This document shows, piece by piece, positions 49,356 through 62,618 of a DNA stretch of 64,000 nucleotides; position 1 is the first letter of the stretch; every line of letters begins with the position of its first letter. Under the pieces are notes generated by a model. The model was not told the DNA's origin and searched no databases. It saw nothing but the letters and a program-made list of their open reading frames with translations. Source of the DNA: an archaeon HR01 (GTDB lineage: Archaea; Thermoproteota; Nitrososphaeria_A; Caldarchaeales; Caldarchaeaceae); NCBI GenBank assembly GCA_002898355.1, contig BEHD01000005.1:34411-98410 (forward strand). Reading direction: 5' to 3'. Both the position numbers and the translations under genes were made by a program.

Positions 49356-49396
49356 TTTGTTGTAGAGGTGCGCGTGATTCTCTGAAATCCAATATA

Positions 49397-49487: not shown

Positions 49488-49543
49488 CTACATACCTCAA
49501 ATACTTACCCTATTTAGGATTTTTCGTCAGACTTGAGTGGTGG

Positions 49544-50434
49544 CTAGGTGGGTATGCCGAGGGCTGCTCTTACCATGGCGGCTGTGGCCCTGTAGTCACC
49601 CATTTTGAAGACGAAGGCTGAGAGCTGGTTTAAAACTAGGAAGGTCACGAGAAGAACTATTAGTATCCAATCTGTTCTTGTGAGCTTCAACTCCTTCAGC
49701 GATGTCCGCTTGGATGGATTGTAGCCATAACCTCTAGACGCCATGGCGGCAGCGATAAATTCAGACCTGCTGATTGAGCGGCTAATGATAGGTAGTACGG
49801 TGGGGACAAACCTTTTGAGAGCTTTTAGTGGATTTCTGCTACTGACGCTCCAACCCCTCGAACGCTGGGCCTCAAAAATTGATGTTACCTGCTGAATCAT
49901 GGCTGGAACCATGCCGAAAGCCACACTCACGGCAACCGCCATCTCCACAGGGGCCCTCAGCTTTGTAAGTGTCGCAGGAATCTCCGAGGGAGAGGTAGTG
50001 CTCAGCAGGACCCTGCCCGCAAGCGTGATTATGAAGAACCTCATCATAGCTCCCGATGCAAAGATTAGAGACTCGAGGCTTACATAGCCGTATGGTCCGA
50101 AGCTTTCTATCTTGGGTATTACATAGCCTAGGTAGAAGAGCGGCCACGGCGGGCGACTAGCTGTAACAGTCTGCTCGAAAAAGAAGATGTTGAACAGCAG
50201 TATGACAAACATCGCCGGTGTGAGGAGTATCAGTATCTTGAGAGCTCCTCTGAAAGGCATCTTCGCCACACCATTAAATACAAGGACAACCGCCAGCACA
50301 CCAAGAAGCCAGAGAGGGTCGTTCCAAGCCACAGCAGGGAGAGAAAGCGCGAGAAACCAGAGTATCTTAACCCTTGGGTCGCGTCTATGCATGAAGGTGT
50401 TGAGAGGTCTATAGCCTATTATGTCATAGGCCAA
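49544..50434 (-). CDS. ECF-transporter transmembrane component (EcfT/CbiQ family)
   Basis: 296-aa polytopic protein immediately downstream of a duplicated ABC ATPase; conserved Arg-rich C-terminal coupling helices. Confidence 0.65.
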   Translation of the reverse strand: MAYDIIGYRPLNTFMHRRDPRVKILWFLALSLPAVAWNDPLWLLGVLAVVLVFNGVAKMPFRGALKILILLTPAMFVILLFNIFFFEQTVTASRPPWPLFYLGYVIPKIESFGPYGYVSLESLIFASGAMMRFFIITLAGRVLLSTTSPSEIPATLTKLRAPVEMAVAVSVAFGMVPAMIQQVTSIFEAQRSRGWSVSSRNPLKALKRFVPTVLPIISRSISRSEFIAAAMASRGYGYNPSKRTSLKELKLTRTDWILIVLLVTFLVLNQLSAFVFKMGDYRATAAMVRAALGIPT

Positions 50435-50436
50435 TC

Positions 50437-52188
50437 CTATCCCACCACCCTGCTTAGATATTCAAACATCTCCGGGATTGTGATTATATCGCCGGGAAAG
50501 CCGATGTCTCTAAGTTGACGGCATATCGAGGTGACTTGTGGGGGTTTGAGAGATGTTTTGGCCAGCACATCCTCTCTCTGGAAGACTTCACGGGGTGGCC
50601 CACTATCTATCACCTGTCCATCATAGAAGACGAACACTCTGTGGCAGTAGGCCGCTATAAGGTCCATATTATGGCTTATGACTATTACTGTGGTCCCTTT
50701 CTCGTTGAGCTTTTTAGCCAGCATCATCATCGCAGAGGCCCTTGCGAAATCTTGGCCTGTAGTAGGTTCATCAACCACCAGAATCTTAGGATTCATCGTA
50801 ACAGCAGACGCTACCACAACCCTCTGCTTGAGACCCTGACTCAGCTTGAAAGGCGATACATCAAGATAAGGCTTCAACTCCAGTTCCTCGGCAACGGCTT
50901 CCACACGTCTCATCACCTCATCCTCTGGCACACCCAAATTCCTAGGCCCGAAGGCCAGCTCCTCCCTCACCGTCTTGGCAAAAAGCTGGTCGTCAGGCAT
51001 CTGAGCAACGTAAGCCACCTGCGATGCCAACTCCTGTACACTTAGTGTCCTCGTATCACGGCCGAAGACAGTAACACGCCCTTTAGTTGGCTTGTAGAGC
51101 CCGTTAAACAGCTTTGCGGTCGTGGTCTTCCCCGACCCGTTCTTACCTATAAAGCCCACAAACTCGCCATGGTATATGGCATCTATATTGACACCCTTCA
51201 AAGCCATACTACCATCCTTGTATTGGTACCACACATCCTCGCACTTGACCGCAACCTCTGAGAATACAGGATTATCCCCGGTATTTCTCTGAAATGTGGG
51301 ATTATTTGGGATATGCTTGGAATTGAAGAGATTCCTCAGAGACCTGACCCCCTCATCGACGGTTATAGGTATCTCTTTAAATCTATAGCCTCTCTTCCTC
51401 AGCCAATAGCTTATCTCAGTAGCGTGAGGTATTTGCAGGTCCAGCTCCTCCATCAACTCAACCTTATCCAACACATCCAACGGCCTGCCATAGGCAACTA
51501 TCTCACCGTTATTCATCACAGCAAGATAGTCCGCTAAGGGTAGTGCATAATCCAGCTTGTGCTCTATTATCACCATCGTCTTATGCTGGGTTTCAGCTAT
51601 CTCCCTAATTCTGTTGAAAACAAGCTCAGTCCCCTCAGGGTCTAGGTTTGCTGTTGGCTCGTCCAACACAAAAATATCGGGCATCATCGCCACGATAGCG
51701 GCTATGGCACATGCCTGCTGTTGACCTCCTGAGAGAAGGTACGGGCTTTTATTCTCAAGTCCGTTAAGCCTGCTGAACTGGAGCGCATAGTTCACCCTAC
51801 GCATAATCTCATCTCTTGGTAAGCAGTAATTCTCAGGCCCGAAGGCCAGCTCCTCTAGAACAGTGGATGTGAAGAGTTGGTTGGCGGGATTGTCGAAGAC
51901 TAGGCCAACCTTAGAGGCCAGAACCGACACATCAAAGTCACGCACACGTAAGCCCTTGATATAGGCTTCACCACTCATTTCACCCCTGTAAAAATGTGGT
52001 ATGAGACCGTTTAGGATGCGGGATAACGTTGTCTTACCCGCACCGCTGGGTCCTGTGACGACTAGTATCTCACCACTTTTAACATGCAAACTGATGTTCT
52101 TGATAGCAGGTTCTGAGGAGCCGCTATACGTCCAAGTAACATTTTCCAGTACAATATCAAACTGCTCTTGCTTTTGCTCTAAGGTCAT
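50437..52188 (-). CDS. Fused duplicated ABC ATPase (EcfA1-EcfA2-like, two nucleotide-binding domains)
   Basis: Two Walker A sites (GPSGAGKTT, GKNGSGKTT), two LSGGQ signatures (LSGGQQQACAIA, LSQGLKQRVVVA), two Walker B sites. Confidence 0.85.
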   Translation of the reverse strand: MTLEQKQEQFDIVLENVTWTYSGSSEPAIKNISLHVKSGEILVVTGPSGAGKTTLSRILNGLIPHFYRGEMSGEAYIKGLRVRDFDVSVLASKVGLVFDNPANQLFTSTVLEELAFGPENYCLPRDEIMRRVNYALQFSRLNGLENKSPYLLSGGQQQACAIAAIVAMMPDIFVLDEPTANLDPEGTELVFNRIREIAETQHKTMVIIEHKLDYALPLADYLAVMNNGEIVAYGRPLDVLDKVELMEELDLQIPHATEISYWLRKRGYRFKEIPITVDEGVRSLRNLFNSKHIPNNPTFQRNTGDNPVFSEVAVKCEDVWYQYKDGSMALKGVNIDAIYHGEFVGFIGKNGSGKTTTAKLFNGLYKPTKGRVTVFGRDTRTLSVQELASQVAYVAQMPDDQLFAKTVREELAFGPRNLGVPEDEVMRRVEAVAEELELKPYLDVSPFKLSQGLKQRVVVASAVTMNPKILVVDEPTTGQDFARASAMMMLAKKLNEKGTTVIVISHNMDLIAAYCHRVFVFYDGQVIDSGPPREVFQREDVLAKTSLKPPQVTSICRQLRDIGFPGDIITIPEMFEYLSRVVG

Positions 52189-52260
52189 ACTCTGGCTCTA
52201 GACCTTTTCATGCTAGGTAATAGCCGTTTAGAGGGATAAAATAAAAAGAAAATAGGGTTA

Positions 52261-52404
52261 TTAACTCTGCTGCTTCCTACGTCGTGTGAAGACATAGGCT
52301 ATCACGAACGTCAGTATTATTAGGATGATGGCGCCTATCTGCTGGGTTGTTGTAGGACCTGCCTGCGCAAGGGCGAGGATTCCGGAAAGAAGACCCATCT
52401 GCAT
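52261..52404 (-). CDS. Possible unlisted 47-aa single-TM protein (MQMGLLSGILALAQAGPTTTQQIGAIILIILTFVIAYVFTRRRKQQS) wedged between the ECF S-component and the ATPase genes
   Basis: Open frame whose start lies 4 nt after the upstream stop; one hydrophobic helix plus a basic tail. Below the ORF-track length cutoff. Confidence 0.25.
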   Translation of the reverse strand: MQMGLLSGILALAQAGPTTTQQIGAIILIILTFVIAYVFTRRRKQQS

Positions 52405-52407
52405 CAC

Positions 52408-53049
52408 CTACGCTGGCGCACCGGGGAAGAGGATTATCGCTATCACGATTATCACCGCTGCGGCAACGGTTATGTGGGGAAGGTATGGGAACCTCCACTC
52501 AGGCTTGACGAAGTCGGGGAATGTGGCTAAAACTATCGAGGGGATTAGCGCGTAGATGAGGAGGAAGACCCAGTAGGCTCCGCCAAGGAAGTTGAAGGCA
52601 GCCAACACCCATATGTTGGGGAAGAACCTGAAGACGTAGACGTAGAGGAAGAACCACGCCCAGTACTGGAAGAACAGAGCGACAGCCGTCAAGGCCCAGT
52701 ATGCTGCTATCCTCACACCCCTATTGGATACATTATAGAGTCTCTTGTAGCCCAAGGCGAGTAGGAATATGTGGGGCCAGTAAAGGGGCCATCCGTAAAA
52801 GCCTACGGGTGAGACGAAAGACTCTAGGAAGGTCACTATTATTCCTCCTAGAGGACCTGCTGCCATGGTGGCTATGGATAAGAAAGTGCCTACCAGATTG
52901 AAGTTCACGCCTGGGAGATAGCCTGGAAGCTGGAGACCAAGACCTGTAGCAGCCATAGCCAAAGCTCCGAATATTGCAGCAACAGATATTTGGCGTGTTG
53001 TCAGAAGTGGTTTTCTTACTTCAGGCTTGGTTTCGCCTGCCATACGCAA
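52408..53049 (-). CDS. Putative ECF-transporter substrate-specific (S) component
   Basis: 213-aa, 6-TM small membrane protein at the head of the A-A'-T genes. Confidence 0.45.
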   Translation of the reverse strand: MRMAGETKPEVRKPLLTTRQISVAAIFGALAMAATGLGLQLPGYLPGVNFNLVGTFLSIATMAAGPLGGIIVTFLESFVSPVGFYGWPLYWPHIFLLALGYKRLYNVSNRGVRIAAYWALTAVALFFQYWAWFFLYVYVFRFFPNIWVLAAFNFLGGAYWVFLLIYALIPSIVLATFPDFVKPEWRFPYLPHITVAAAVIIVIAIILFPGAPA

Positions 53050-53090
53050 CTATTTAGATGTTAGCGGGCATATAAGCATTTTTAACCGTA

Positions 53091-54824
53091 TCACGGGGAT
53101 GGCTGACTCCTCTCCCACCCAGTGGCTTCCCAGTCGATTTCAAGGTTCTCCCTTAGCACGACGCGGTATATCCTCTTGGCATCATCCACGGTGATGTAAC
53201 CTTCCATAACATCCTCACGCACCTTCTCTGGATCTCTCTTCCTCGGGTCACCCCATCCACCGCCGCCTGCGGTTCTTATACTTACCAAGTCACCTGCTTT
53301 AAGCCGCTCACCAGAAACTTTTCTCACACGTGTCTCGCTTCCGTCAGACTTTATTATCAGCATGTAATTGTAGGTGCCAGGCAGTCCGCCGTTAACACCC
53401 CATGGTGGGAACTTAGAACGGTTGACCGCTGTCGTGAACTCTGCGTCTGCTAGAAGCCTGTAGTCTTTGACTATTCCGAATCCTCCCCTAAACTCGCCAT
53501 GTCCTACTCCGTCTTCCGTGTTGAGCTGATATCTCTCCACTATGATGGGGTACCTCTGTTCTATCACCTCGATAGAGGTAATGAATGTCTCCCCGTCAGC
53601 AAACGAGACTAGGGCGCTCTCCCCATCCTTGTCATAGCCTGCACCCCATCCACCAGGGTTTGGCTCCACTAATGCAAAAGCCTCGCCGTTTCTAGGGTTG
53701 ATTCCAGCAATTGTCTCAGCCACAACGCTGAGGAAGTGACCGGCCGTTAAACGGTCGGGTATGTATGGTGCCAGCGCTTTCCACACCAAGTCGGCTGCAT
53801 AAGTCATCGTCTCCCAGTAAATACCAACAGGATATGGCTTCTTCGCATTGAATACCGTGTTCTCCGGTATGGTTATCCTTAGCGGCTTGACAAATCCCTG
53901 GCAATATCTAACATGGGGATCTAGCACAGCCGCATACACTATTCTCACGGCGGCGACGGTGGCTGGATATGTTGTGTTAATTGCGGCACGTACTGCGGGC
54001 GGATTTCCTGAAAGATCGACATCAAACTTGTCATCGTCAATCTCTACCTTAACGGTCAGCTTCATCGGATCTTCACTCACTCCGCTGTCATCGTAATAAT
54101 CCTCTGCCCTAAAAACTCCCTTGGGCAGCATCTTTATACGATTCCATGCCACAGTCTCACCATCACGCTGTATCTTATCCATATTGGCCTTCACTGTATC
54201 CAGGCCATATTTTGATACTAGCGCCTTGAGCCTTCTCTCCGCCAGCTTCATCGAGGCGGTCTGAGCCTCGATATCCCCCAATACGTATGAGGGCAGCCTG
54301 CTATTTTCCAGTAGGAGGTCTAGAACATCCTTGTTCAACCTATTCTCTTCATATAGCTTCACAGGTGGAATAAGTATCCCCTCATGATAGACCTCCGAAC
54401 CCTTAGGCCCCCAGCTTCCGAAGACCATACCGCCTATGTCATAATAATGTCCTTTGTTTACACCGATGGCCAAGAGCTCGTCTTTATGGAAGAACGGCGC
54501 CACGATTGCTACATCGTTGAGATGTGTTCCAGAGATGTATGGGTCGTTGACGATTATTACATCGCCTGGCTGCAGTCCATCTTTCCCGAACTTGTCGAGT
54601 GGTGCTTTAGCGTTGAAGTCAAGCATTCCTATGAATAGCGGTATGCCAGTAGCCTGTGAGACAACATCCCCTTCTGCGTCTGTAAGTCCGGTGGAGAAAT
54701 CCAAAACATCATATATTATTGGACTCTTAGATGTTTTAGCAGTTACTGTGAACATTTCCTCCGCTATAGCTATCAGAGAGTTTTTAACAATCTCCATCTC
54801 TATAAGGTCTGGCATCTCATTCAC
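53091..54824 (-). CDS. hyuB: Hydantoinase B/oxoprolinase family protein (HyuB; N-methylhydantoinase B or acetone-carboxylase-alpha-like), copy 1
   Basis: VKNSLIAIAEEM..., DPYISGTHLNDVAIVAPFF, GGWGAGYDKDGESALV, GGGGWGDP typical of the HyuB family. Confidence 0.85.
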   Translation of the reverse strand: MNEMPDLIEMEIVKNSLIAIAEEMFTVTAKTSKSPIIYDVLDFSTGLTDAEGDVVSQATGIPLFIGMLDFNAKAPLDKFGKDGLQPGDVIIVNDPYISGTHLNDVAIVAPFFHKDELLAIGVNKGHYYDIGGMVFGSWGPKGSEVYHEGILIPPVKLYEENRLNKDVLDLLLENSRLPSYVLGDIEAQTASMKLAERRLKALVSKYGLDTVKANMDKIQRDGETVAWNRIKMLPKGVFRAEDYYDDSGVSEDPMKLTVKVEIDDDKFDVDLSGNPPAVRAAINTTYPATVAAVRIVYAAVLDPHVRYCQGFVKPLRITIPENTVFNAKKPYPVGIYWETMTYAADLVWKALAPYIPDRLTAGHFLSVVAETIAGINPRNGEAFALVEPNPGGWGAGYDKDGESALVSFADGETFITSIEVIEQRYPIIVERYQLNTEDGVGHGEFRGGFGIVKDYRLLADAEFTTAVNRSKFPPWGVNGGLPGTYNYMLIIKSDGSETRVRKVSGERLKAGDLVSIRTAGGGGWGDPRKRDPEKVREDVMEGYITVDDAKRIYRVVLRENLEIDWEATGWERSQPSP

Positions 54825-56892
54825 CTCCTTTCCTCACGTGTAGATTACCATACTGGTCTACGGATATCTTCTGACCGGGTAATACAATTGCCGTGGATGT
54901 GGGATCCTCTACTATCATTGGTCCTTTGAGGGTTGCACCCGGTGGAAGCCTACCTCTTTCGTAAACTTCAACTCTAACCCAGCCCCTCTTAGCGTCCAAG
55001 TAAGCTTCCCTCTCCCCCTTAAAGGCTTTGGAGACAGATGTGTCTTCGCGGGGAAGAAGCTTTAGAATCGGCTTCCTAACTTTGAGGAGCGCCACTACAT
55101 GGTAGTTCACTATCTCGATTGGACTGTCAAGCTTGAATGAATAGTATTTGTAGTGATTTTCATGGAACCTCCGCTCCAGCTCTTCAATAAGCTGTCTATC
55201 GACTTCGCCGTTAGGCACTCCCACCTTCAGCACATGCTCCTGCCCATAGTACCTCATATCTGCGTATCTAGCCAGAACGATATCGCCTTTCTTCCCGCCG
55301 TTATGCTGTATACCCCTCGCCCTAACCTCTAACTCGCTGTATGTGTTGGCGACCCTCTCTATGGCCTGTGGGTGGTCCAGCCTCGTCACGGAGGTTTTAA
55401 CGAAGTCGTGACGTAAGTCTGTCATCAGAAGCCCCCATGCTGAGAAAACACCCGGCGGTATTGAGGGGATGATAACATTTCCCACCTCCAACTCCTCAGC
55501 TATGAATGATGCGAACATAGGTCCAGAGCCTCCGAAAGCCACGATCGTGAAATCCCTTGGGTCATAGCCTCTCTCTATCGATATACGCCTAATCACTTGT
55601 GAGGCATTATCGTTACCTAGTCTTACAACTCCGAAGGCCGTCTCATCGACAGTCATATCCAGCCGCTCAGCCAATTCTCCCATTGCCTTCTTAGCGAGAT
55701 GTATATCTAGTCGGAGCGCTCCACCGAGAAAATAGTTGGGGTTTATGATTCCTGTTATTAGATAGGCATCCGTGAGGGTGGGCTTCTGCCCGCCTCTTCC
55801 ATAGCATGCCGGTCCAGGGTCAGCACCTGCGCTGGCCGGCCCAACCCTCATACTTCCTGTCTCATCAATCCAGGCTATGCTTCCCCCACCATTTCCAACC
55901 TCAACAATATCGATCACAGGGACCTTCACAGGGTATCCGGCGTTGAACTGGTCCCTCTCCACATAATAATCTGTCAGAACCCTCGGCATTAGTTCTTCAA
56001 CGAGGCTTGCTTTAGTGGTTGTACTTCCACCATCCAAAGCTATGATATTTTTAATTCCTAGGAGCTCACCTATTGTGATCGCTCCCACAACGCCCGCAGC
56101 TGGCCCTGACTCGATGGAGAGGATGGGGTAGTCCGCCGCATATCGGAAGGTTGAGACCCCTCCGCTAGAGAGCATCATGAACAGCTCACCTCTAACACCT
56201 TTCCTTCTCAATATCTCCTCCAAATTTCTCAGATAGTTGTCCATCTGAGGGTGGACATAGGCATTCAACACCGTGGTGCTTGTTCTCTCATACTCGCGCC
56301 ACTCACCGGTTATCTCGCTTGATACGCTGACATAAGGCCTGACACCCATATTCTCGAGGACTCTGACTATAAGCTCCTTAGACCTAGCCTCGTTAGATTG
56401 ATTGGCGTAGCTGTTGATGTAACATACTGCTATAGATTGGACACCAAGCGAGACTAGACTCTTTGTTGCAGCCTCCACATCTCCCTCATTAAGAGGTTTA
56501 AGAACGGTGCCATCATATCCAACCCTCTCGTCCACCTCCCTGATCAGATGCCGTGGTACGAAACTGGCTGGCTTCCTATATCTGAGGTTGTATATATCAC
56601 GTCTATTCGATCTTGTTATCAGGATTACATCTCTAAAGCCCTTGGTGGTTATCAAGCCGACTTTGCTGCCGCGCCTAGTGATAATGGTGTTGATTACAAG
56701 GGTCTGCCCGTGGAGCAGGCTGGACACAGTAGATGGATCTACACCTGACTTGGAAAAAACCCTCATCACACCCTCTGAATAGTTGGCAGGGGTTGTCTCA
56801 TCCTTGGACCATGCGATCTCGCCTGTTTCCTCATCTATTGCAAAAAGGTCTGTGAACCCTCCTCCTATGTCAATCGCAACCCTTTTAGACAT
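54817..56892 (-). CDS. hyuA: Hydantoinase A/oxoprolinase family protein (HyuA, ATP-binding ASKHA fold), copy 1. Start trimmed to MSKRVAIDIGGGFTD.
   Basis: AIDIGGGFTDLFA, ITTKGFRDVILITR, ALDGGSTTTKASLV motifs. Confidence 0.85.
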   Translation of the reverse strand: MSKRVAIDIGGGFTDLFAIDEETGEIAWSKDETTPANYSEGVMRVFSKSGVDPSTVSSLLHGQTLVINTIITRRGSKVGLITTKGFRDVILITRSNRRDIYNLRYRKPASFVPRHLIREVDERVGYDGTVLKPLNEGDVEAATKSLVSLGVQSIAVCYINSYANQSNEARSKELIVRVLENMGVRPYVSVSSEITGEWREYERTSTTVLNAYVHPQMDNYLRNLEEILRRKGVRGELFMMLSSGGVSTFRYAADYPILSIESGPAAGVVGAITIGELLGIKNIIALDGGSTTTKASLVEELMPRVLTDYYVERDQFNAGYPVKVPVIDIVEVGNGGGSIAWIDETGSMRVGPASAGADPGPACYGRGGQKPTLTDAYLITGIINPNYFLGGALRLDIHLAKKAMGELAERLDMTVDETAFGVVRLGNDNASQVIRRISIERGYDPRDFTIVAFGGSGPMFASFIAEELEVGNVIIPSIPPGVFSAWGLLMTDLRHDFVKTSVTRLDHPQAIERVANTYSELEVRARGIQHNGGKKGDIVLARYADMRYYGQEHVLKVGVPNGEVDRQLIEELERRFHENHYKYYSFKLDSPIEIVNYHVVALLKVRKPILKLLPREDTSVSKAFKGEREAYLDAKRGWVRVEVYERGRLPPGATLKGPMIVEDPTSTAIVLPGQKISVDQYGNLHVRKGGE

Positions 56893-56946
56893 TGTCTGAT
56901 ATATATTGGCGAGACTTAAAAAGTTGGTGCTCGAATTCTTCATATC

Positions 56947-57288
56947 ATGGTGGAAGTATTTCATATAGATGAGAAAACCTGGGATAGTTCAAGTGGTAAA
57001 GTTTCTGTCCTAGTGGATGAAAGTCTGAGCGGAAGGTTAATAGCTGGTGTGGTGGTTTTAGAGCCTGGCCAGAGACTTCCTGCAAAGGGGTTCAGCCAAC
57101 ACCTCGAAAGCGATGAGCTAGCCTATGTAGTTGAAGGATCAGCCATCTTCGGGAAAGAAGACGGCGAGTTTTTAATAAAAGAGTCTGACCTAGTTTTTAA
57201 TCCGAGAGGAACCAAGCATTACGTCATAAACCCCGGCGACAAACCCTGCAAAATCATTTGGGCTCTTGCACCACCTATCAAGCTTTAG
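56947..57288 (+). CDS. Cupin-domain protein (cupin_2)
   Basis: 113 aa, two-motif beta-barrel pattern (G..H.H...E..YVVEG, NPRGTKHYVINPGD); lies between the two hyuAB pairs on the opposite strand. Confidence 0.5.
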   Translation: MVEVFHIDEKTWDSSSGKVSVLVDESLSGRLIAGVVVLEPGQRLPAKGFSQHLESDELAYVVEGSAIFGKEDGEFLIKESDLVFNPRGTKHYVINPGDKPCKIIWALAPPIKL

Positions 57289-58976
57289 CTTCTACTCCTA
57301 CGCCTAACCTTAACACCATATTTGGCACGGGCCTCAGCTGCTGTAATGTAGCCGTTCCTAACGTCGTCTAACACACGCTCTTGATCACGTTCCTTCGGGT
57401 TCCCATATCCTCCACCTCCGCCTGTCACTAGGCGTATGAGATCTCCACGCTGCAGTTGCACGGCTGCGGCTTTCCTAGTCTTTAAAGGCGGCTTTCCCTT
57501 TCTGTAGATGATGAAGTAGTTGGGTGTGCCATCACCTCCTCCAGCCATACCCCACGGCGGGAATTTAGATCTCCCGAACGAGGCTGTAAATATCGCATGG
57601 GAGTTGAGGACCCTGTAGTCCTTTATTATCCCATGGCCGCCCCGGAACTTCCCGGCTCCAGGTTTATCCCTGAGGTTTAGGCTATACTGCTCCACCCTAA
57701 TCGGATACCGCACCTCAATCACCTCGTTGGACATAATGTAGGTCTCGCCGTCTAGGCTGCAGACCATTCCACTCTCTCCATCCTTGTTATATCCGGCACC
57801 CCAACCACCAGGCTGCGGCTCCACGATAGCGAAGGGCTCTCCAGTGCGGTCATCCACACCACCCACTATTGTGGCGCACACACTGAGAAAATGGCCTGCT
57901 GTCAGCTTGTCCGGCACATGTGGCGCTAGGGCTTTCCATATTAGCTCCGCTGCAAATGAGCCTGCCTCCCAGAAAGTGGCGACGGGTGCTGGGGGCTTTG
58001 GGTGGAAGACTGTTCCTTCGGGTGCAATAACCTGCACGGGTCTGAAGGCCCCCTCGTTGGCTGGGGACTGAGGGTCTGTAACTGCTTTAAACATAACCTT
58101 AGCAGCGGCTATGGTCATTGAGTAGGGCGAGTTAATAGGCCCTCTCGCCTGGGGTGATGAGCCGCTATAGTCAACTATGAAGCTCTCATCCGATATAGTC
58201 ACGCGAGCCCTCACATAAACCGGATTATCGGAGATACCGTCATCATCGATATAATCCTCAGCCTCGAATGAACCATGGGGTAGCTTACGTAGCTCGTTAT
58301 AGGCTTTCTCCTCACCATCCCTTATGATAGCCTCCATAGCCCTCGCTATTGTGGATGGTCCGTATTTAGCGCAAAGCTGTGCTATCCTCCTACCTCCTAA
58401 CCTCAGGGCTGCCGCCTGTGCCTCCATATCTCCCAGCGTCATATCAGGCGTCCTTACGTTGGTAAGTATGAGGTCGAAGAGGTCCCTGTTTGGTTCCCCC
58501 GCTATGTATAGCTTGAGAAGTGGGAACTGAACGCCCTCTTGGTAGATCTCTGTCGAGTCCGTGGTCCAGCTTCCGAATCTCATTCCTCCCACCTCGCTCC
58601 AGTGGCCCTTGTTGACTGAGAAGGCTATGAGCTGGCCGTCGAAGAATACTGGGCTAATCAGTGTTACATCGTTGAGATGTGTGCCGTGTGTGTATGGTAT
58701 GTTGGTTATTATGATGTCGCCGTCAGAGAACCCGTCAACACCATATTTTTTGATGCAGTCTTTTACAGCTAGGTCCAGCACGCCTAGAAATCCCGGAACC
58801 CCGTTTGCCTGCGCCACCAGCTCACCCTTACTGTTGGTTATGGCCACGGCGTAGTCGAGGACCTCATATATGACAGGGCTCTTGCTGGTCCTGCCAAAAG
58901 CTATGAATTCCTCCTCGGCTATGGCTATGAGACTGTTTTTAACCACTTCCAGTGTAAACGGGTCTAGATCAGACAT
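57285..58976 (-). CDS. hyuB: Hydantoinase B/oxoprolinase family protein (HyuB), copy 2
   Basis: Paralogous to 53091..54824 with the same motif set (VKNSLIAIAEEEF, GGWGAGYNKDGESGMV, GGGGGYGNP). Confidence 0.85.
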   Translation of the reverse strand: MSDLDPFTLEVVKNSLIAIAEEEFIAFGRTSKSPVIYEVLDYAVAITNSKGELVAQANGVPGFLGVLDLAVKDCIKKYGVDGFSDGDIIITNIPYTHGTHLNDVTLISPVFFDGQLIAFSVNKGHWSEVGGMRFGSWTTDSTEIYQEGVQFPLLKLYIAGEPNRDLFDLILTNVRTPDMTLGDMEAQAAALRLGGRRIAQLCAKYGPSTIARAMEAIIRDGEEKAYNELRKLPHGSFEAEDYIDDDGISDNPVYVRARVTISDESFIVDYSGSSPQARGPINSPYSMTIAAAKVMFKAVTDPQSPANEGAFRPVQVIAPEGTVFHPKPPAPVATFWEAGSFAAELIWKALAPHVPDKLTAGHFLSVCATIVGGVDDRTGEPFAIVEPQPGGWGAGYNKDGESGMVCSLDGETYIMSNEVIEVRYPIRVEQYSLNLRDKPGAGKFRGGHGIIKDYRVLNSHAIFTASFGRSKFPPWGMAGGGDGTPNYFIIYRKGKPPLKTRKAAAVQLQRGDLIRLVTGGGGGYGNPKERDQERVLDDVRNGYITAAEARAKYGVKVRRRSRS

Positions 58977-61030
58977 TAGTCCACCCCTCCATATCTAATA
59001 ACTATATTACCAAAATTGTCTATCTTGAATGTATCGCCTGGCATTACAAGGGTTGTTGATGTTTTCTCCTCTATTATTGCTGGTCCTTGTTTTGTATTGC
59101 CGATGGGAAGCTTCTCCCTTTCGTAAACTGGTACCTCTGTAAAGCCTACTCCAGGCAGATAAGCCCTCCTATATCCCTTACTGGCCTCCTCAAAATCTTG
59201 GGTATCCCCTTGAAGAACAGCGATTCGGGGTTTGCTAACTTTTGCGAAGGCGGCGAGATGGAGGTTGACAACCTCCACAGGACTGTCAAGCCTGAAGGTA
59301 TATTCTTTCTCATGTGCTTTATGGAATCTTTCTGTAATCTCCTGAATTAATCCTCTGTTAAACATTCCTGAAGGAACTTCAATGCTGACGGTATGCTCCT
59401 GCCCATAGTATCTAAGGTCAAGTGTCCTGACGAAGTACATGTCCACTTCATTTATGCCTTGAGCGGTCAGTACCTGGCGCCCCTCTTCCTCTAAAGTGTT
59501 GAACAGATTGTTCAAGATGTCTATATGCGCGTCATCCAATTTCATAACTCTTGTCATCTTAAAATCATGCCTCAGATCCGTCATCAACATTCCCCACGCT
59601 GAGAAGACGCCTGGAATCCTAGGTATTACGGTCTTGGATACCTGTAGCTCTCTTGCAAGAAGCGTAGCGAACATGGGGCCTGCTCCTCCGAAGGCCACAA
59701 GTGTGAAATCCCTTGGGTCATGCCCCCTTGCTACCGATACCAGCCTGAGGAGGTTGACCATGTTTCCAGCAGCCACCTTGATTATACCTGCCGCAGCCTC
59801 CTCCACGCTAGTCCCAAAATGTTCGGATATCTTGGCCACAGCTTTCTCCGCTGCATGTTTGTCAAGCCTTATTTCGCCTCCCAGAAAATATTCGGGGTTA
59901 AGTATTCCTGAGACCACGAATGCGTCTGTGACGGTGGGCTGCTCACCACCTTTTCCATAACACGCCGGACCTGGATATGCTCCTGCACTTCTTGGCCCGA
60001 CCTTTAAACTCCCCACATCATCTATCCAAGCTATGCTTCCGCCTCCGGCCCCTATTTCAACGATATCTACAACAGGTGTTTTCACAGGATATCCTGCGTA
60101 TGTAGGTGTTCTCTCCACCCTGTAATCTGGGTTTAGCCTGATTCTGCCATTCTCCACCAGCGACGCCTTGGCCGTTGTCCCGCCCACATCCAAGCTTATC
60201 ACATTCGATTCACCCACCGCAACACCCAGCTCCCTCGCACCAATAACACCGCCTGCTGGGCCCGACTCGACCTGGAGTATGGGTGTCTCCCTAGCTTTCT
60301 CCAATACAGCAACACCGCCGTTGGACTGTATAACGTGGATAGGGATTCTAATGCCAAGCTCCCGCATCTTCATCTCCAAGTCTTTCAAATAAGTCTCAAG
60401 CAAAGGCTTCACATAGGCATCCAAGACTGTGGTATTCATCCTCTCATACTCCCGCCACTCACGTGTAATCTCATGTGAGGATGAAACATACTTGAAGTGG
60501 CCCCTAGCAATCTTCGCAACCTCTTTTTCATGGTCCGGGTTAGCGTATGAGTTGTAAAGACATATGGCTATTGATTCGGCGCCGTAGCTACGGGCTTTTC
60601 TTAGGGCCTCCAGCACACTTTTCTTCGCCAGCTTTAATACCACGGAGCCGTCTGAGGCGATGCGCTCCAACACCTCAAACCTTAGATACCGGGGGACAAA
60701 GGGCACCGGCTTCCTATAAGAGTAGTTGTACATGTCAGGCCTATTAGAGCGTTGAATCTCTAGAACATCTCTAAAGCCTTTGGTGGTTATCAGGGCCGTT
60801 TTAACACCTTTTCTTTCTATTATTGCATTGATGACGAGGGTGGAGCCTGTACCCACGAAACGTGTTACATCTTCCCCTCTTATACCGCTGGATTTAAAAG
60901 TGTTCACAACCCCTTCAGAGAAGTCATGGGCTGTCGTGAGACCCTTACCGAGAACAATTTCACCAGTCACCTCATTCAGAGCGCATAGATCGGTGAAGGT
61001 TCCACCCACGTCAATTGCTACCCTAAACAT
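58976..61030 (-). CDS. hyuA: Hydantoinase A/oxoprolinase family protein (HyuA), copy 2
   Basis: MFRVAIDVGGTFTDLCAL, ITTKGFRDVLEIQR, paralogous to copy 1. Confidence 0.85.
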   Translation of the reverse strand: MFRVAIDVGGTFTDLCALNEVTGEIVLGKGLTTAHDFSEGVVNTFKSSGIRGEDVTRFVGTGSTLVINAIIERKGVKTALITTKGFRDVLEIQRSNRPDMYNYSYRKPVPFVPRYLRFEVLERIASDGSVVLKLAKKSVLEALRKARSYGAESIAICLYNSYANPDHEKEVAKIARGHFKYVSSSHEITREWREYERMNTTVLDAYVKPLLETYLKDLEMKMRELGIRIPIHVIQSNGGVAVLEKARETPILQVESGPAGGVIGARELGVAVGESNVISLDVGGTTAKASLVENGRIRLNPDYRVERTPTYAGYPVKTPVVDIVEIGAGGGSIAWIDDVGSLKVGPRSAGAYPGPACYGKGGEQPTVTDAFVVSGILNPEYFLGGEIRLDKHAAEKAVAKISEHFGTSVEEAAAGIIKVAAGNMVNLLRLVSVARGHDPRDFTLVAFGGAGPMFATLLARELQVSKTVIPRIPGVFSAWGMLMTDLRHDFKMTRVMKLDDAHIDILNNLFNTLEEEGRQVLTAQGINEVDMYFVRTLDLRYYGQEHTVSIEVPSGMFNRGLIQEITERFHKAHEKEYTFRLDSPVEVVNLHLAAFAKVSKPRIAVLQGDTQDFEEASKGYRRAYLPGVGFTEVPVYEREKLPIGNTKQGPAIIEEKTSTTLVMPGDTFKIDNFGNIVIRYGGVD

Positions 61031-61104
61031 ATCGCAGATACTGGAAAGTTAACTTTTATTCTTTACCCTCAAACCTTTATATCCGCTACTCATCGAGTTC
61101 ATCC

Positions 61105-62205
61105 ATGAACAATCGCCCCAAGCTCGTCAAGCTATTGGATAGATGTAGAGAATCAGGCATAGATGGTGTAATCATAATTCCAGGCCCAAATATGAGATAT
61201 CTTATTGACTTTACATTGGAGGTGTTCGAGAGACCTGCCTTCCTATTGGCTGGCTTCGGGCTGAAGCCTACACTATTAGTCCCACAGCTTGACGAGGAGA
61301 GGGCCAGAGAAGCTCTAGACTTATCATGTGAAGTAGTCTCATACACTGATGATATGGGGCCATGGCATTGGATGGGCCGGCTGTTATCTGACTTGACCGG
61401 CAATGTGGGTGTGGAAGATAGGATGCCCCTTGGACTGTATAGAATGCTGGAAAATCGTGGTAAGCGGCTGAGATTTGTAGAGGTTGACGCTATCTTACGC
61501 CTCCTCAGAGTCTCTAAGGATTCTGAAGAGATAGATAGGCATAGAGAAGCCGCTAGGATACTGCAGGAAGCCATGCTGAGAACTTTTGCGGATTTGAGTG
61601 GGGGAGAGAGTGAGAGGGAGCTCATGTTCACATTCCACCGACACGCATACGAACTCGGAGCCGATACATCCTACTGCCTAATCCAGTCAGGTCCTAACAG
61701 CGCAAAACCCCATATGGAACCCACTACTAGGCAGATAAGATCGGACGATGTGATAGTCTTCGACGCAGCGGTAACATACCGTGGATACTACGCCGACATA
61801 ACCCGGACAATCACTATAAAAAAACCAGCCGAGTCACAGATGAAAATATTCAACATAGTATTGGAGGCCCAGCAGGCTGCAATACAAGCATCTAGGACTG
61901 GCATACCTGCGGAGGAGGTAGACCGTGCGGCGAGAAAACATATTGCCGATGCAGGATTTGCAGAATATTTCATACATAGGACAGGGCATGGCTTAGGTGT
62001 TGAGGTCCATGAAGAACCATACATCCGCGAAGGTAACAAATCCCCTCTAGCCAACGGAATGATTTTCACTGTTGAGCCAGGCATCTACCTGCCAGGCAGA
62101 TTCGGCGTAAGGCTTGAAGACAACATCATAATCACACCGTCAGGAATAGAGAATACAACCAGGCTTCCCAAAACCTTAGCTCTACATGAAACACTACGCT
62201 CTTAG
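61105..62205 (+). CDS. M24-family metallopeptidase (Xaa-Pro dipeptidase/aminopeptidase or creatinase-type) with an N-terminal creatinase/prolidase domain
   Basis: Pita-bread metal ligands: D (VIVFDAAV.YRGYYADITRT), HRTGHGLGVEVHEEP, and E..FTVEPGIY. Confidence 0.8.
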   Translation: MNNRPKLVKLLDRCRESGIDGVIIIPGPNMRYLIDFTLEVFERPAFLLAGFGLKPTLLVPQLDEERAREALDLSCEVVSYTDDMGPWHWMGRLLSDLTGNVGVEDRMPLGLYRMLENRGKRLRFVEVDAILRLLRVSKDSEEIDRHREAARILQEAMLRTFADLSGGESERELMFTFHRHAYELGADTSYCLIQSGPNSAKPHMEPTTRQIRSDDVIVFDAAVTYRGYYADITRTITIKKPAESQMKIFNIVLEAQQAAIQASRTGIPAEEVDRAARKHIADAGFAEYFIHRTGHGLGVEVHEEPYIREGNKSPLANGMIFTVEPGIYLPGRFGVRLEDNIIITPSGIENTTRLPKTLALHETLRS

Positions 62206-62517
62206 TCCAAGAAGTTCATATGCAGGGACATTCCTAAAGCTTTAGCCTAGAAAACTAGGTGTAGGACGTAAAGTTACAAATCTGTGAAGACCACGGACTT
62301 CGGAGGAGGTAGAGTGAGCTGTGGTGGAGCGCATAGTGATTGGGCCAAGCCATACTAGATCCTACCATCCCCCAGATATTTGCAGGAAAGACGCTCATCA
62401 AGTAAACAGACATCAAATCCGAAAATACCACAAGAAACCCCTCATAACAGACACCGTTCTCACGGAAAACACAGCAGTAAAAACCTAAAAGAAAGCATAA
62501 AAAACCCAGCCCAGAAA

Positions 62518-62618
62518 GGGGGCGTAGCCGAGCAAGGCCAAGGCGTCGGGCTCCAGATCACACGGCCAAGGTCAGAGGCGCAACCCGAAGACCGTGGGTT
62601 CAAGTCCCACCGCCCCCA
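62518..62618 (+). tRNA. Intron-containing tRNA, most likely tRNA-Trp (anticodon CCA) with a 26-nt intron in or next to the anticodon loop
   Basis: Hand fold: acceptor GGGGGCG/CGCCCCC, discriminator A. D arm GCCG-AGCAAGGCCA-AGGC. Anticodon stem TCGGG/CCCGA separated by 33 nt beginning CTCCAGA (the Trp-type loop). Variable loop AGACC. T arm GTGGG-TTCAAGT-CCCAC. A canonical BHB could not be drawn by eye. Confidence 0.6.

What the first reader, a model, noticed from the sequence alone, without database searches (positions are those of the whole stretch)
50437..62205. Tandemly duplicated HyuA/HyuB (ATP-dependent hydantoinase/oxoprolinase) pairs flanking a cupin, next to an M24 peptidase and an ECF-type importer
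Layout in the sequence, all within 12 kb:
- two complete hyuA-hyuB pairs on the minus strand (58976..61030 + 57285..58976, and 54817..56892 + 53091..54824)
- a 113-aa cupin on the opposite strand exactly between them
- an M24 pita-bread peptidase on one side
- a complete ECF-type transporter on the other side (S, fused A-A', T, plus a 47-aa extra TM ORF)

What is known about the families:
- HyuA/HyuB is the ATP-dependent cyclic-amide hydrolase family. Its members include N-methylhydantoinase, 5-oxoprolinase and the acetone/acetophenone carboxylases.
- M24 includes creatinase and prolidase.
- In bacterial creatinine degradation, N-methylhydantoinase and creatinase act in alternative branches.

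The paralogs differ substantially (estimated by eye at about 50-60% identity), so this is an old duplication, possibly with two substrate specificities. The combination with a dedicated ECF importer suggests an uptake-plus-ring-opening module for a small cyclic amide (hydantoin, lactam or oxoproline-like). The substrate is unknown.
Basis: partly seen in the sequence, partly recalled or inferred. Interest (0 to 1): 0.65.

Follow-up and report, generated by a model that had tools for sequence, protein, structure and literature searches.

The report
ECF importer coupled to cyclic-amide hydrolases
An archaeal gene block joins an unannotated type of ECF uptake system to two pairs of ATP-driven ring-opening amidases, a linkage kept in about 80 archaeal and bacterial loci, so it probably imports and opens a still-unidentified small cyclic amide.

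Summary
The window holds M24 peptidase, HyuA1-HyuB1, a cupin, HyuA2-HyuB2, an S component, a 48-aa TM ORF, a fused ECF A-A' ATPase and an ECF T gene. All ORFs are intact. The T gene (49544-50434) lies just outside the stated range. The paralogs are 50-51% identical.

New here: the 213-aa S protein belongs to a small, unannotated ECF S-component family. Its model has pLDDT 89.6, and ThiT and RibU are the top fold matches at 21% identity or less. In 80 loci from Caldarchaeales, Nitrososphaerales, Bathyarchaeia, Ktedonobacteria and Rubrobacter, this S gene sits beside A-A'/T and HyuAB. All 30 loci with at least 4 kb on both flanks have HyuAB. Two HyuAB pairs recur. A cupin recurs too, stand-alone in archaea and fused to an HTH in bacteria. 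A prolidase-like M24 occurs in 12 loci.

The uptake-plus-ring-opening reading is therefore supported by comparative genomics. The creatinine/creatinase hint is not: the M24 keeps all prolidase metal ligands. The source is a Caldarchaeum relative, not Thermoproteales. The substrate is unknown. Candidates are X-Pro diketopiperazines, hydantoins and 5-oxoproline. Every part belongs to a known kind. The linkage was not found in the literature searched.

The parts
49544..50434 (-). ECF transmembrane coupling (T) component, 296 aa
   Evidence: PF02361 CbiQ at 89 bits against a cut-off of 25. Two xRG coupling motifs, SRG at residues 192 and 233. Conserved next to A-A' in 61 loci.
50437..52188 (-). 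Fused ECF A-A' ATPase, 583 aa
   Evidence: TIGR04520 at 466 bits (cut-off 315) and TIGR04521 at 460 bits (cut-off 330). Two Walker A and two Walker B motifs. The N half has a canonical LSGGQ signature. The C half has a degenerate LSQGL signature, and this degeneracy is family-wide.
52261..52407 (-). Small single-pass membrane ORF (44-48 aa), a possible accessory subunit
   Evidence: One predicted TM segment followed by a basic C-terminus. Conserved directly after S in Caldarchaeum relatives (70-90% identity) and in L010/L033 (52%), with a 64-aa analogue in soil archaeal loci. No Pfam hit, including none to CbiN.
52408..53049 (-). Substrate-capture (S) component of a previously unannotated ECF S family, 211-213 aa
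53091..54824 (-). HyuB2, metal-site (hydrolytic) subunit of pair 2, 577 aa
   Evidence: PF02538 full length, E 9e-169. [quoted passage not shown] 50% identical to HyuB1. Falls in its own clade.
54817..56892 (-). HyuA2, ATP-binding (ASKHA) subunit of pair 2, 691 aa
   Evidence: PF05378 + PF01968 + PF19278. 51% identical to HyuA1. Clade-specific phosphate motifs DIGGGFTD and DGGSTT, with the adenosine motif GADPGP.
56893..56946 (.). Divergent intergenic region between the HyuA2 operon and the cupin gene
   Evidence: 54 bp, A+T-rich, containing 'atatatat' and 'ttaaaaag'. Inferred to hold divergent archaeal promoters. Not tested.
56947..57288 (+). Stand-alone Cupin_2 protein, 113 aa
   Evidence: PF07883, E 9e-12. 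A 113/111-aa Cupin_2 gene sits between the two pairs in Caldarchaeum contigs L027 and L028, and tblastn finds the same in L029-31. 36% identical to the cupin next to HyuAB in Bathyarchaeia L026. Aligns in register with the sensor domain of the bacterial HTH_3-Cupin_2 regulators. Immediately precedes M24 on the same strand in L049 (3-nt gap), so probably co-transcribed.
57285..58976 (-). HyuB1, metal-site subunit of pair 1, 563 aa
   Evidence: PF02538, E 2e-175. The D-H-D-H tetrad is conserved. Belongs to a large archaeal clade.
58976..61030 (-). HyuA1, ATP-binding subunit of pair 1, 684 aa
   Evidence: Three Hyu_A domains. Canonical DVGGTFTD, DVGGTT and GAYPGP motifs.
61031..61104 (.). Divergent intergenic region between HyuA1 and M24
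   Evidence: 74 bp with TATA-like 'ttttatt' and 'tttatat'. Promoter role is inferred.
61105..62205 (+). M24B prolidase-like metallopeptidase, 366 aa
   Evidence: PF00557 + PF01321. Best PDB matches are archaeal Xaa-Pro peptidases (4rgz, E 2e-72), with D-D-H-E-E ligands aligned. Part of the block conserved in L027-L031. M24 genes are also present in L020, L021, L038, L039, L049 and L057.

Best explanation
This is a dedicated uptake-plus-ring-opening module.

Proposed mechanism:
1. A group-I (dedicated) ECF transporter imports a small, probably uncharged, heterocyclic amide. The transporter consists of a new S component, a fused A-A' ATPase, a T component and possibly a small single-TM accessory protein.
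2. In the cytoplasm, two paralogous HyuA/HyuB enzymes use ATP to open the thermodynamically stable ring. HyuA is the ASKHA ATP-binding subunit and HyuB carries an Asp-His-Asp-His metal site, as in caprolactamase, N-methylhydantoinase and OPLAH.
3. Most loci contain only the transporter, HyuAB and a regulator. The product is therefore probably an ordinary metabolite, either an amino acid or a dipeptide.
4. Where the product is a dipeptide-like compound, the co-located prolidase-like M24 would split it.
5. The two pairs most likely act in parallel on related substrates or stereoisomers rather than in sequence. Some genomes carry S with only pair 1, only pair 2, or only a third HyuAB type.
6. The cupin is the ligand-sensing domain of the bacterial HTH-cupin regulators. 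In archaea it is stand-alone, with an unresolved role (sensor or auxiliary enzyme).

What is shown and what is inferred:
- Shown: the gene content, the motifs, the S-component fold and the cross-domain synteny.
- Inferred: transport direction, hydrolase activity and substrate class.

My ranking of substrate classes is inference only: proline-containing diketopiperazines or other neutral lactams, roughly level with 5-substituted hydantoins/ureides, and both ahead of 5-oxoproline.
For: Family and motif evidence:
- Family assignments and motifs.
- S-component fold. PF12822 matches 9 of 22 relatives.

Synteny:
- S is adjacent to HyuAB in 67 of 80 loci and in 30 of 30 loci with at least 4 kb on both flanks. 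The median S-to-Hyu gap is 314 bp.
- The loci come from Caldarchaeales, Nitrososphaerales, Bathyarchaeota, Ktedonobacteria, Chloroflexia and Rubrobacter/Actinobacteria.
- Two loci picked through HyuB2 homologs, not through S, again show S + A-A' + T between two HyuAB pairs.
- The block from M24 to T is kept in five Caldarchaeum-type contigs. The outer flanks, read in L027 and L028, differ from each other and from the window.

Accessory genes:
- HTH_3-Cupin_2 regulators lie upstream in bacterial loci.
- M24 is present in 12 loci.
- Dpp/Opp peptide ABC genes and a Pro_dh gene lie next to related clusters.

Hydrolase rather than carboxylase:
- Scores to caprolactamase-type models exceed those to carboxylase models.
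- HyuB length (563-577 aa) is CapB-like. It lacks the carboxylase C-terminal arm described in PMC8453981.

S binding site:
- The invariant S residues are aromatic or polar (Y42, N47, F48, H91, Y103, F124, Q126, W128, W130, Y134, W183).
- They include a single His and no Cys, Asp or Glu. This fits an organic ligand rather than a metal.

HyuB pocket:
- Positions mapped from CapB are acidic or Trp-rich (E/D38, W136, W336), and no basic residue was detected.
- This weakly favours a neutral over an anionic substrate.
Against: - No biochemical or expression data exist for any member.
- HyuB1- and HyuB2-like proteins are far more widespread in archaea than this S family (thousands of hits). They also occur with other transporters: NCS1 in Saccharolobus and Dpp-type ABC in Bathyarchaeia. 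The enzymes are therefore not exclusive to this importer.
- ECF transporters classically carry micronutrients rather than bulk carbon or nitrogen sources.
- HyuA2 has non-canonical phosphate-binding motifs.
- The substrate ranking rests on weak context and on an alignment-based pocket comparison at about 31-34% identity.
Confidence: 0.7

Rival explanations
1. The HyuAB pairs are housekeeping 5-oxoprolinases that repair spontaneously cyclised glutamate and glutamine, a heavy burden in thermophiles. The ECF system is an unrelated vitamin transporter that merely lies nearby.
For: - 5-oxoprolinase is a bona fide activity of this family. Sulfolobaceae have ATP-stimulated 5-oxoprolinase activity and HyuAB-type candidate genes (PMC6507225).
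- One close HyuB1 homolog is labelled '5-oxoprolinase' by NCBI (annotation only).
- Several host lineages are thermophiles.
- The minimal module needs no downstream enzyme, which fits 5-oxoproline going directly to glutamate.
Against: - The S family is adjacent to HyuAB in 30 of 30 well-flanked loci across two domains. That cannot be coincidence.
- S matches no vitamin-specific S family.
- The Sulfolobus 5-oxoprolinase candidates are a shorter subtype (505-513 and 640-650 aa, PMC6507225) than the window pairs (563-577 and 684-691 aa).
- A dedicated regulator, M24 and peptide-transport neighbours suggest catabolism of an external compound.
- The HyuB pocket positions carry acidic residues and no basic ones (weak evidence).
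- 5-oxoproline scavenging from outside the cell remains possible. It is counted under the main explanation.
Confidence: 0.07
2. The ECF system imports a metal ion (Zn, Mn, Co or Ni) needed for the HyuB metal site, as the CbiMNQO and NikMNQO group-I ECF transporters do. It does not import the enzyme's organic substrate.
For: - The T component hits the 'CbiQ' Pfam model.
- HyuB has a conserved D-H-D-H metal site.
- The small extra membrane proteins recall CbiN.
Against: - S shows no hit to CbiM or to any other Pfam or NCBIfam family, and the small ORFs show none to CbiN.
- The best fold matches are organic-substrate S components, ThiT and RibU.
- The N-terminus is variable and lacks the conserved metal-binding N-terminal motif of CbiM/NikM (the motif is from established knowledge).
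- The invariant residues include only one His and no Cys, Asp or Glu.
- PF02361 is the generic EcfT model.
Confidence: 0.06
3. The enzymes are ATP-dependent carboxylases of the acetone or acetophenone carboxylase type, acting on an imported ketone rather than hydrolysing an amide.
For: Same superfamily. There are weaker NCBIfam hits to ApcA, ApcC and ApcD and PDB hits to 5l9w, 5svb and 5m45.
Against: - Scores to caprolactamase models are about twice those to carboxylase models.
- No gamma or epsilon subunit genes are present.
- HyuB is 563-577 aa, close to CapB (581 aa). It is much shorter than the 684-776 aa carboxylase subunits, whose C-terminal arm binds the gamma subunit (PMC8453981).
- The first metal ligand is Asp, not the Glu of acetone carboxylase.
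Confidence: 0.04
4. This is a micronutrient salvage module. The ECF system imports trace amounts of a cofactor-related heterocycle that carries a lactam or ureido ring. HyuAB converts it into a usable precursor rather than feeding bulk catabolism.
For: - Known ECF S components mostly carry vitamins and cofactor precursors, and are often clustered with salvage enzymes (established knowledge).
- The nearest folds are ThiT and RibU.
- The binding-site residues are aromatic, as in vitamin-binding S components.
Against: - Two or more large ATP-consuming enzyme pairs plus a peptidase is heavy machinery for salvage.
- No cofactor-biosynthesis genes recur in the neighbourhood.
- No riboswitch is present.
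- The recurring neighbours are peptide-related: M24, Opp/Dpp and Pro_dh.
Confidence: 0.1

Closest known systems
Caprolactamase CapAB of Pseudomonas jessenii (PDB 6yra) and the P. putida OplAB lactamase
   Same: - Two-subunit A (ASKHA ATP site) plus B (Asp-His-Asp-His metal site) architecture.
- Similar subunit sizes.
- All ATP and metal motifs are present in pair 1 (PMC8453981).
- It is the best-scoring NCBIfam model.
   Different: - Only about 31-34% identity in the B subunit.
- Scores are far below the equivalog cut-offs: 272-556 bits against 1000.
- The vicinal Cys410-Cys411 and most hydrophobic pocket residues are replaced by Glu/Asp38, Trp136 and Trp336.
- The transporter context differs.
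N-methylhydantoinase (PDB 7hk5/9h03, fused 1288-aa protein)
   Same: Best PDB sequence match for all four subunits (E 1e-79 to 1e-126). Shares the acidic residue at CapB position 38.
   Different: - It is fused, whereas the window enzymes are two-subunit.
- 32-34% identity in the B part.
- The fourth metal ligand is Gln in 7hk5 but His in the window proteins.
- No creatinine-pathway genes lie nearby.
- It branches outside the ECF-linked clades in the NJ tree.
pxpR-pxpTABC 5-oxoproline utilisation cluster of Corynebacterium glutamicum (PMC13274462)
   Same: Same logic: a dedicated importer, an ATP-dependent lactam-opening enzyme and a specific ligand-sensing regulator, all for a spontaneously formed cyclic amide.
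   Different: Every protein family is unrelated: an APC-superfamily permease instead of ECF, PxpABC instead of HyuAB, and a GntR regulator instead of a cupin or HTH-cupin. The substrate here is unknown.
Dedicated (group I) ECF transporters with fused A-A' ATPases, e.g. YkoEDC (HMP/thiamine precursor), and the S components ThiT and RibU
   Same: - S, fused A-A' and T are encoded together.
- The T component has two xRG motifs.
   Different: - S is 21% identical or less to any solved S component, and most members hit no Pfam family.
- It is clustered with large catabolic-type enzymes rather than vitamin genes.
- The C-half ABC signature is degenerate.
- Archaeal versions have an extra conserved single-TM ORF.
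Archaeal prolidases (Pyrococcus and Thermococcus Xaa-Pro dipeptidases, PDB 1pv9, 1wy2, 4rgz)
   Same: The M24 gene has the same two-domain architecture and all five metal ligands.
   Different: It scores 203 bits against the 630-bit cut-off of the archaeal PepQ equivalog. It is embedded in the HyuAB/ECF block rather than standing alone.

Membership tests
HyuA/HyuB ATP-dependent hydantoinase/oxoprolinase/lactamase superfamily | A subunit with Hydant_A_N + Hydantoinase_A + Hydant_A_C domains above the Pfam gathering scores | tested here: met
   Both HyuA1 and HyuA2 have all three domains at full length.
HyuA/HyuB ATP-dependent hydantoinase/oxoprolinase/lactamase superfamily | ATP-site motifs DxGGTxTD (P1), DxGGT (P2) and GxxPGP (adenosine), as defined in PMC8453981 | tested here: met
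   HyuA1 has DVGGTFTD, DVGGTT and GAYPGP. HyuA2 keeps both Asp residues and GADPGP, but has the variants DIGGGFTD and DGGSTT, conserved in 16 of 16 pair-2 sequences. The feature is met for pair 1 and is a conserved variant in pair 2.
HyuA/HyuB ATP-dependent hydantoinase/oxoprolinase/lactamase superfamily | B subunit with full-length Hydantoinase_B and the Asp-His-Asp-His metal tetrad | tested here: met
   PF02538 at E 2e-175 and 9e-169. D, H, D and H are conserved in pair 1, pair 2 and type 3.
HyuA/HyuB ATP-dependent hydantoinase/oxoprolinase/lactamase superfamily | ATP-dependent hydrolysis of a cyclic amide | not testable with these tools
   Needs an enzyme assay.
Caprolactamase CapAB (NCBIfam equivalogs NF050156/NF050157) | Score at or above the equivalog cut-off (1000 bits) | tested here: not met
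   HyuA1 556, HyuA2 510, HyuB1 272 and HyuB2 283 bits. The pocket residues and the vicinal disulfide are not conserved.
OPLAH-type 5-oxoprolinase (eukaryotic OPLAH, MJ0963/0964, Saci_0368/0369) | Clustering with verified or candidate 5-oxoprolinases in a phylogeny | not tested
The only indirect evidence is that the Sulfolobus candidates are a shorter subtype (PMC6507225), while the Saccharolobus homolog of HyuB1 (P0142, 579 aa) is of the longer subunit size class and sits in an NCS1/AsnC/DUF917 neighbourhood.
Acetone/acetophenone carboxylases | Extra gamma (and epsilon) subunits, a long C-terminal arm on the B-type subunit, and equivalog-level scores | tested here: not met
   No such genes are in the block. 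HyuB is 563-577 aa against 684-776 aa (PMC8453981). Scores are 94-325 bits against cut-offs of 1250-1500.
ECF (energy-coupling factor) transporter, dedicated/group I | EcfA and EcfA' ATPase domains | tested here: met
   TIGR04520 at 466 bits (cut-off 315) and TIGR04521 at 460 bits (cut-off 330) in one fused 583-aa protein. Walker A and B motifs are present in both halves.
ECF (energy-coupling factor) transporter, dedicated/group I | EcfT component with two conserved Arg-containing coupling motifs | tested here: met
   PF02361 at 89 bits. SRG at residues 192 and 233.
ECF (energy-coupling factor) transporter, dedicated/group I | Small integral-membrane S component with the S-component fold, encoded next to the A and T genes | tested here: met
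Known vitamin-specific S-component families (RibU, ThiT, BioY, FolT, PanT, YkoE, CbiM and others) | Sequence-level membership in one of these families | tested here: not met
   The window S protein has no Pfam or NCBIfam hit. Only 1 of 22 relatives gives a marginal PF07155 hit, at E 0.028. Identity to solved S components is 21% or less.
M24B Xaa-Pro peptidase (prolidase) versus creatinase | Pita-bread domain plus Creatinase_N domain, with the D-D-H-E-E dinuclear metal ligands. Creatinase lacks the metal centre (established knowledge). | tested here: met
   PF00557 + PF01321. All five ligands align with the Thermococcus Xaa-Pro peptidase 4rgz. The archaeal PepQ equivalog cut-off is not reached, 203 against 630 bits. 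The gene is therefore prolidase-like, not an orthologous PepQ, and nothing points to creatinase.
Cupin_2 | Cupin barrel motifs | tested here: met
   PF07883, E 9e-12. His52, Glu57, His91 and Asn95 sit in the two cupin motifs, of which Glu57, His91 and Asn95 are invariant across stand-alone and HTH-fused versions. No specific enzyme subfamily is indicated.

The most novel reading that the evidence does not exclude
The module is an ATP-dependent diketopiperazine utilisation system. The ECF transporter imports proline-containing cyclic dipeptides, which form spontaneously from peptides, especially at high temperature. The HyuAB pairs open the otherwise very stable DKP ring at the expense of ATP. 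The prolidase-like M24 then splits the resulting X-Pro dipeptide. These would be the first identified enzymes for DKP ring hydrolysis, and a function for the abundant uncharacterised HyuAB clades of TACK archaea.

The evidence does not exclude this:
- M24B genes occur in 12 loci.
- Opp/Dpp peptide ABC genes, an M29-like gene and a Pro_dh gene lie next to related clusters.
- The mapped HyuB pocket positions are acidic or Trp-rich with no basic residue, which suits a neutral ligand.
- No downstream enzymes are needed.
- The searchable literature holds no assigned DKP hydrolase of this family.
Probability: 0.15. Interest if true: 0.8.

Novelty: new member of a known kind. Interest (0 to 1): 0.52.

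Why it matters
- HyuAB homologs are very numerous in TACK archaea. Each window subunit returned more than 2,600 hits among the 8,000 candidates scored. Almost none has a known substrate.
- A strictly co-inherited importer, and in bacteria a ligand-sensing HTH-cupin regulator, give three independent binding proteins (S component, regulator, enzyme) that can be screened for the ligand.
- The module occurs in cultivated bacteria (Thermogemmatispora carboxidivorans, T. tikiterensis, T. aurantia, Rubrobacter taiwanensis), so the question can be tested directly.
- It adds a new S-component specificity family to ECF transporters.
- It would be an unusual case of an ECF system tied to ATP-dependent catabolic or scavenging enzymes rather than to vitamin metabolism.

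Tried and rejected
- Exact-sequence look-up of window HyuA1 found nothing on record. The organism was inferred from near-identical MAG proteins instead.
- Creatinine pathway and creatinase idea: rejected. The M24 is prolidase-like with its metal ligands, and no creatinine deaminase or carbamoylsarcosine amidase gene is in the block.
- Caprolactamase orthology: rejected on NCBIfam cut-offs and pocket residues.
- Carboxylase reading: rejected (see rival explanations).
- Metal-importing ECF reading: considered unlikely. There is no hit to CbiM for S or to CbiN for the small ORFs, and the invariant residues in S are unsuitable.
- Riboswitch control: none found in 49000-63000 at E 0.1 or better. 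Only two tRNAs were reported.
- Genomic-island idea from the flanking tRNAs: the tRNAs are not kept next to the block in relatives, so it was left as a note.
- Literature searches for hydantoinase + ECF, oxoprolinase + energy-coupling factor, diketopiperazine + hydantoinase, and HyuA + HyuB gave nothing relevant. The source and substrate work behind PDB 7hk5/9h03 could not be found.
- The AFDB fold library was unavailable.
- A direct comparison with OPLAH-type 5-oxoprolinases could not be made, because no reference sequence was obtainable.
- The cupin gave only generic matches in the PDB.

Full report

Yes. The ORF map and the Pfam and NCBIfam scans show the following genes.

On the minus strand:
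- ECF T component (49544-50434; PF02361).
- Fused ECF A-A' ATPase (50437-52188; TIGR04520 and TIGR04521, both above their cut-offs).
- A 48-codon single-TM ORF (52261-52407).
- A 213-aa multi-TM protein with no family hit (52408-53049).
- HyuB2 (53091-54824) and HyuA2 (54817-56892).
- HyuB1 (57285-58976) and HyuA1 (58976-61030).

On the plus strand:
- A 113-aa Cupin_2 protein (56947-57288), lying between the two pairs.
- A two-domain M24 peptidase (61105-62205).

All ORFs are intact with full-length domain coverage. Family E-values reach 1e-175, so chance is not an issue. The paralogs are 51% (A) and 50% (B) identical.

Three corrections apply:
- The T gene lies just outside the finding's start coordinate.
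- The left neighbour is an unrelated pstSCAB-phoU operon. The block therefore runs from 49544 to 62205.

**2. Source organism**

The window proteins are 84-99% identical to proteins of MAGs labelled Candidatus Caldarchaeum sp. or Nitrososphaerota, and to hot-spring metagenome proteins. The source is a Caldarchaeum relative ('Aigarchaeota'), not Thermoproteales.

**3. The S component is real and belongs to an unannotated family**

- A database search found only 33 protein clusters. Nearly all were unnamed or labelled 'hypothetical'; one JGI record calls a member 'riboflavin transporter FmnP'.
- 9 of 22 aligned members, though not the window protein, hit the generic PF12822 ECF S-component model.
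- An AlphaFold model built on the family alignment is confident (pLDDT 89.6, pTM 0.86).
- The family's invariant residues are mostly aromatic or polar (Y42, N47, F48, H91, Y103, F124, Q126, W128, W130, Y134, W183). They include a single His and no Cys, Asp or Glu. This fits an organic heterocycle better than a metal ion.
- The T component has two SRG coupling motifs. The A-A' protein has two Walker A/B sets.

**4. The key new result: S and HyuAB are co-inherited**

I used the S alignment to pull loci from one-genome-per-species contigs (19 loci) and from metagenomes (60 loci). I mapped the window proteins onto them with tblastn.

- Of 80 S loci, 67 carry HyuA/HyuB within 3.2 kb or less (median gap 314 bp), and 69 carry A-A' and/or T.
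- All 30 loci with at least 4 kb on both sides of S have HyuAB. The 13 loci without it are contigs that end at or near S on at least one side.
- The hosts span Caldarchaeales, Nitrososphaerales, Bathyarchaeota, a 'Thermoprotei' MAG, a Promethearchaeota MAG, Ktedonobacteria (three cultured Thermogemmatispora species), Chloroflexia, Rubrobacter taiwanensis and other Actinobacteria.
- Two further loci chosen through HyuB2 homologs, not through S, again show S (66-67% identity) + A-A' + T between two HyuAB pairs.
- The reverse does not hold. HyuB1- and HyuB2-like proteins are very numerous in archaea and also occur with other importers: NCS1 plus an AsnC regulator in Saccharolobus islandicus, and a Dpp-type ABC system plus a cupin in Bathyarchaeia.

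**5. Recurrent accessories**

- Two HyuAB pairs are common. Archaea have pair 1 + pair 2. Bacteria have a pair-1-like pair plus a third, deeper type at about 41%/35% identity.
- Some genomes have S with only pair 1 (L013), only pair 2 (L047, L050) or only type 3 (Rubrobacter L020). The pairs therefore look like parallel specificities, not obligate sequential steps.
- A cupin recurs. It is stand-alone in archaea, and in L049 it immediately precedes M24 on the same strand. In bacteria it is fused to an XRE-type HTH, giving an HTH_3-Cupin_2 regulator.
- The stand-alone cupin aligns in register with the regulator's sensor domain. Glu57, His91 and Asn95 are invariant.
- A prolidase-like M24 occurs in 12 loci.
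- In five Caldarchaeum-type contigs the whole block from M24 to T is conserved. The outer flanks, read in two of them (L027, L028), differ from each other and from the window. This argues that M24 belongs to the unit.
- Archaeal versions also keep the small single-TM ORF after S. Eight archaeal loci also carry a 75-102-aa two-TM ORF.

**6. What the enzymes are**

- Both pairs have the defining features of the ATP-dependent lactamase/hydantoinase/oxoprolinase family as laid out for caprolactamase (PMC8453981). These are the ASKHA ATP motifs in the A subunit and the Asp-His-Asp-His metal tetrad in the B subunit.
- HyuA2 carries a clade-wide variant of the two phosphate motifs (DIGG[G/A]FTD and DGGSTT, 16 of 16 sequences). 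Pair 1 and type 3 are canonical.
- The closest solved relatives are a fused N-methylhydantoinase (7hk5/9h03) and CapAB (6yra). Identity in the B subunit is only 31-34%.
- Both references fall outside all ECF-linked clades in a neighbour-joining tree.
- Caprolactamase equivalog cut-offs are missed by a wide margin. The CapB pocket residues, including the vicinal disulfide, are replaced by Glu/Asp38, Trp136, Trp336 and, in pair 2 only, Glu368.
- Carboxylase features are absent: no gamma subunit, no long C-terminal arm, and no Glu as first metal ligand.

**7. The M24 is not creatinase-like**

Its best matches are archaeal Xaa-Pro peptidases (4rgz, E 2e-72; Pyrococcus prolidases). All five D-D-H-E-E metal ligands align. 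It is, however, far below the archaeal PepQ equivalog cut-off. There are no creatinine-pathway genes in the block.

**8. Mechanism proposed**

The ECF system imports a small cyclic amide. The HyuAB enzymes spend ATP to open a ring whose hydrolysis is thermodynamically unfavourable, as shown for caprolactam in PMC8453981.

The universal core is only the transporter, HyuAB and a regulator. The product should therefore be a normal metabolite.

Substrate candidates:
- **5-oxoproline, giving glutamate.** It is a known burden and a growth substrate in thermoacidophiles (PMC6507225). In Corynebacterium it is the object of an analogous but non-homologous uptake/enzyme/sensor cluster, pxpR-pxpTABC (PMC13274462).
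- **X-Pro diketopiperazines, giving dipeptides for the M24 to split.** The peptide-related neighbours favour this: M24 in 12 loci, Opp/Dpp ABC genes, an M29-like gene and Pro_dh. The acidic, Trp-rich pocket with no detected basic residue also fits (weak evidence).
- **Hydantoin-like ureides.** NCS1 permease neighbours in Sulfolobales and some actinobacterial loci point this way. However, no carbamoylase recurs.

None of this is decisive, and the substrate remains unknown.

**9. Rivals**

- Coincidental adjacency of housekeeping oxoprolinases and a vitamin transporter is excluded by the 30-of-30 linkage.
- Metal import is unlikely, given the fold matches, the invariant residues, and the absence of any CbiM or CbiN hit.
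- Carboxylase function is unlikely.
- Micronutrient salvage cannot be excluded.

**10. Novelty and limits**

Every component family is known, and the operon logic (importer + enzyme + sensor) is ordinary. What is new:
- The S-component family itself.
- Its strict, cross-domain coupling to HyuAB, frequently to two paralogous pairs.
- The recurrent cupin and M24 accessories.

I found no description of this in the searchable literature. That library is incomplete.

The main gap is that I could not place the pairs relative to true OPLAH-type 5-oxoprolinases. All functional statements are inferences from sequence, predicted fold and synteny.

Noticed in passing
window 49397-49487 (-) and 62518-62618 (+): Two tRNA genes of intron-containing length (91 and 101 nt; Rfam RF00005 at 52.6 and 57.3 bits) bracket the module, one just beyond T and one beyond M24. 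ARAGORN missed both. Together with the module's lower G+C (about 0.49 against about 0.53 elsewhere in the window), this could mark an insertion hot spot. The tRNAs are not adjacent to the block in relatives.
   Followed up: partly
window 52261-52407 (-); L006, L009, L010, L030, L031, L033, L036-L040: A 44-64-aa single-pass membrane ORF with a basic C-terminus directly follows the S gene in all archaeal versions. Eight archaeal loci also carry a 75-102-aa two-TM ORF between the ECF genes and HyuA1. These may be extra transporter subunits. They have no Pfam family and no CbiN similarity.
   Followed up: partly
window 50437-52188 (-), C-terminal half of the fused ATPase: The second ABC signature motif is degenerate (LSQGL here; LS[QMK]G[LE] across the whole family). 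The first is canonical LSGGQ. This implies one consensus and one degenerate nucleotide site.
   Followed up: partly
window 54817-56892 (-), HyuA2; pair-2 orthologs in L007, L011, L029-L031, L037, L047-L050: The pair-2 HyuA clade has altered phosphate-binding motifs, DIGG[G/A]FTD and DGGSTT, in 16 of 16 sequences. Pair 1 and type 3 keep DxGGTFTD and DxGGT[T/S]. Nucleotide handling may therefore differ.
   Followed up: partly
L015, L022, L051, L052, L054, L056, L060, L072, L073, L083, L086: Eleven bacterial loci carry a large (858-1070 aa) STAND/NB-ARC-TPR-LuxR regulator divergent from the first HyuAB pair, in the position where other bacterial loci have the HTH-cupin gene.
   Followed up: no
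L025 (Saccharolobus islandicus CP001731) and L018: HyuAB1-like genes, or the ECF genes, lie next to NCS1 permeases and to pairs of a short Hydantoinase_A-only protein with an S-Me-THD/DUF917 protein. This is a different hydantoinase-like system that may act on related heterocycles.
   Followed up: no
L090 1-97 and L026 1-4933; L049 4849-7748: A proline dehydrogenase gene abuts HyuB in L090. Opp/Dpp-type peptide ABC transporter genes neighbour the cupin, M24 and HyuAB genes in L026 and L049.
   Followed up: partly
window 39625-42291 (+): An 888-aa ORF whose only family hit is a short Matrixin (M10) zinc-protease motif segment (residues 180-217). Next to it is a chorismate synthase gene at 42281-43369.
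   Followed up: no
window 62683-63168 (-), 63237-63578 (-): Two ORFs of 161 and 113 aa to the right of M24 have no Pfam match. They are not part of the block conserved in relatives.
   Followed up: no
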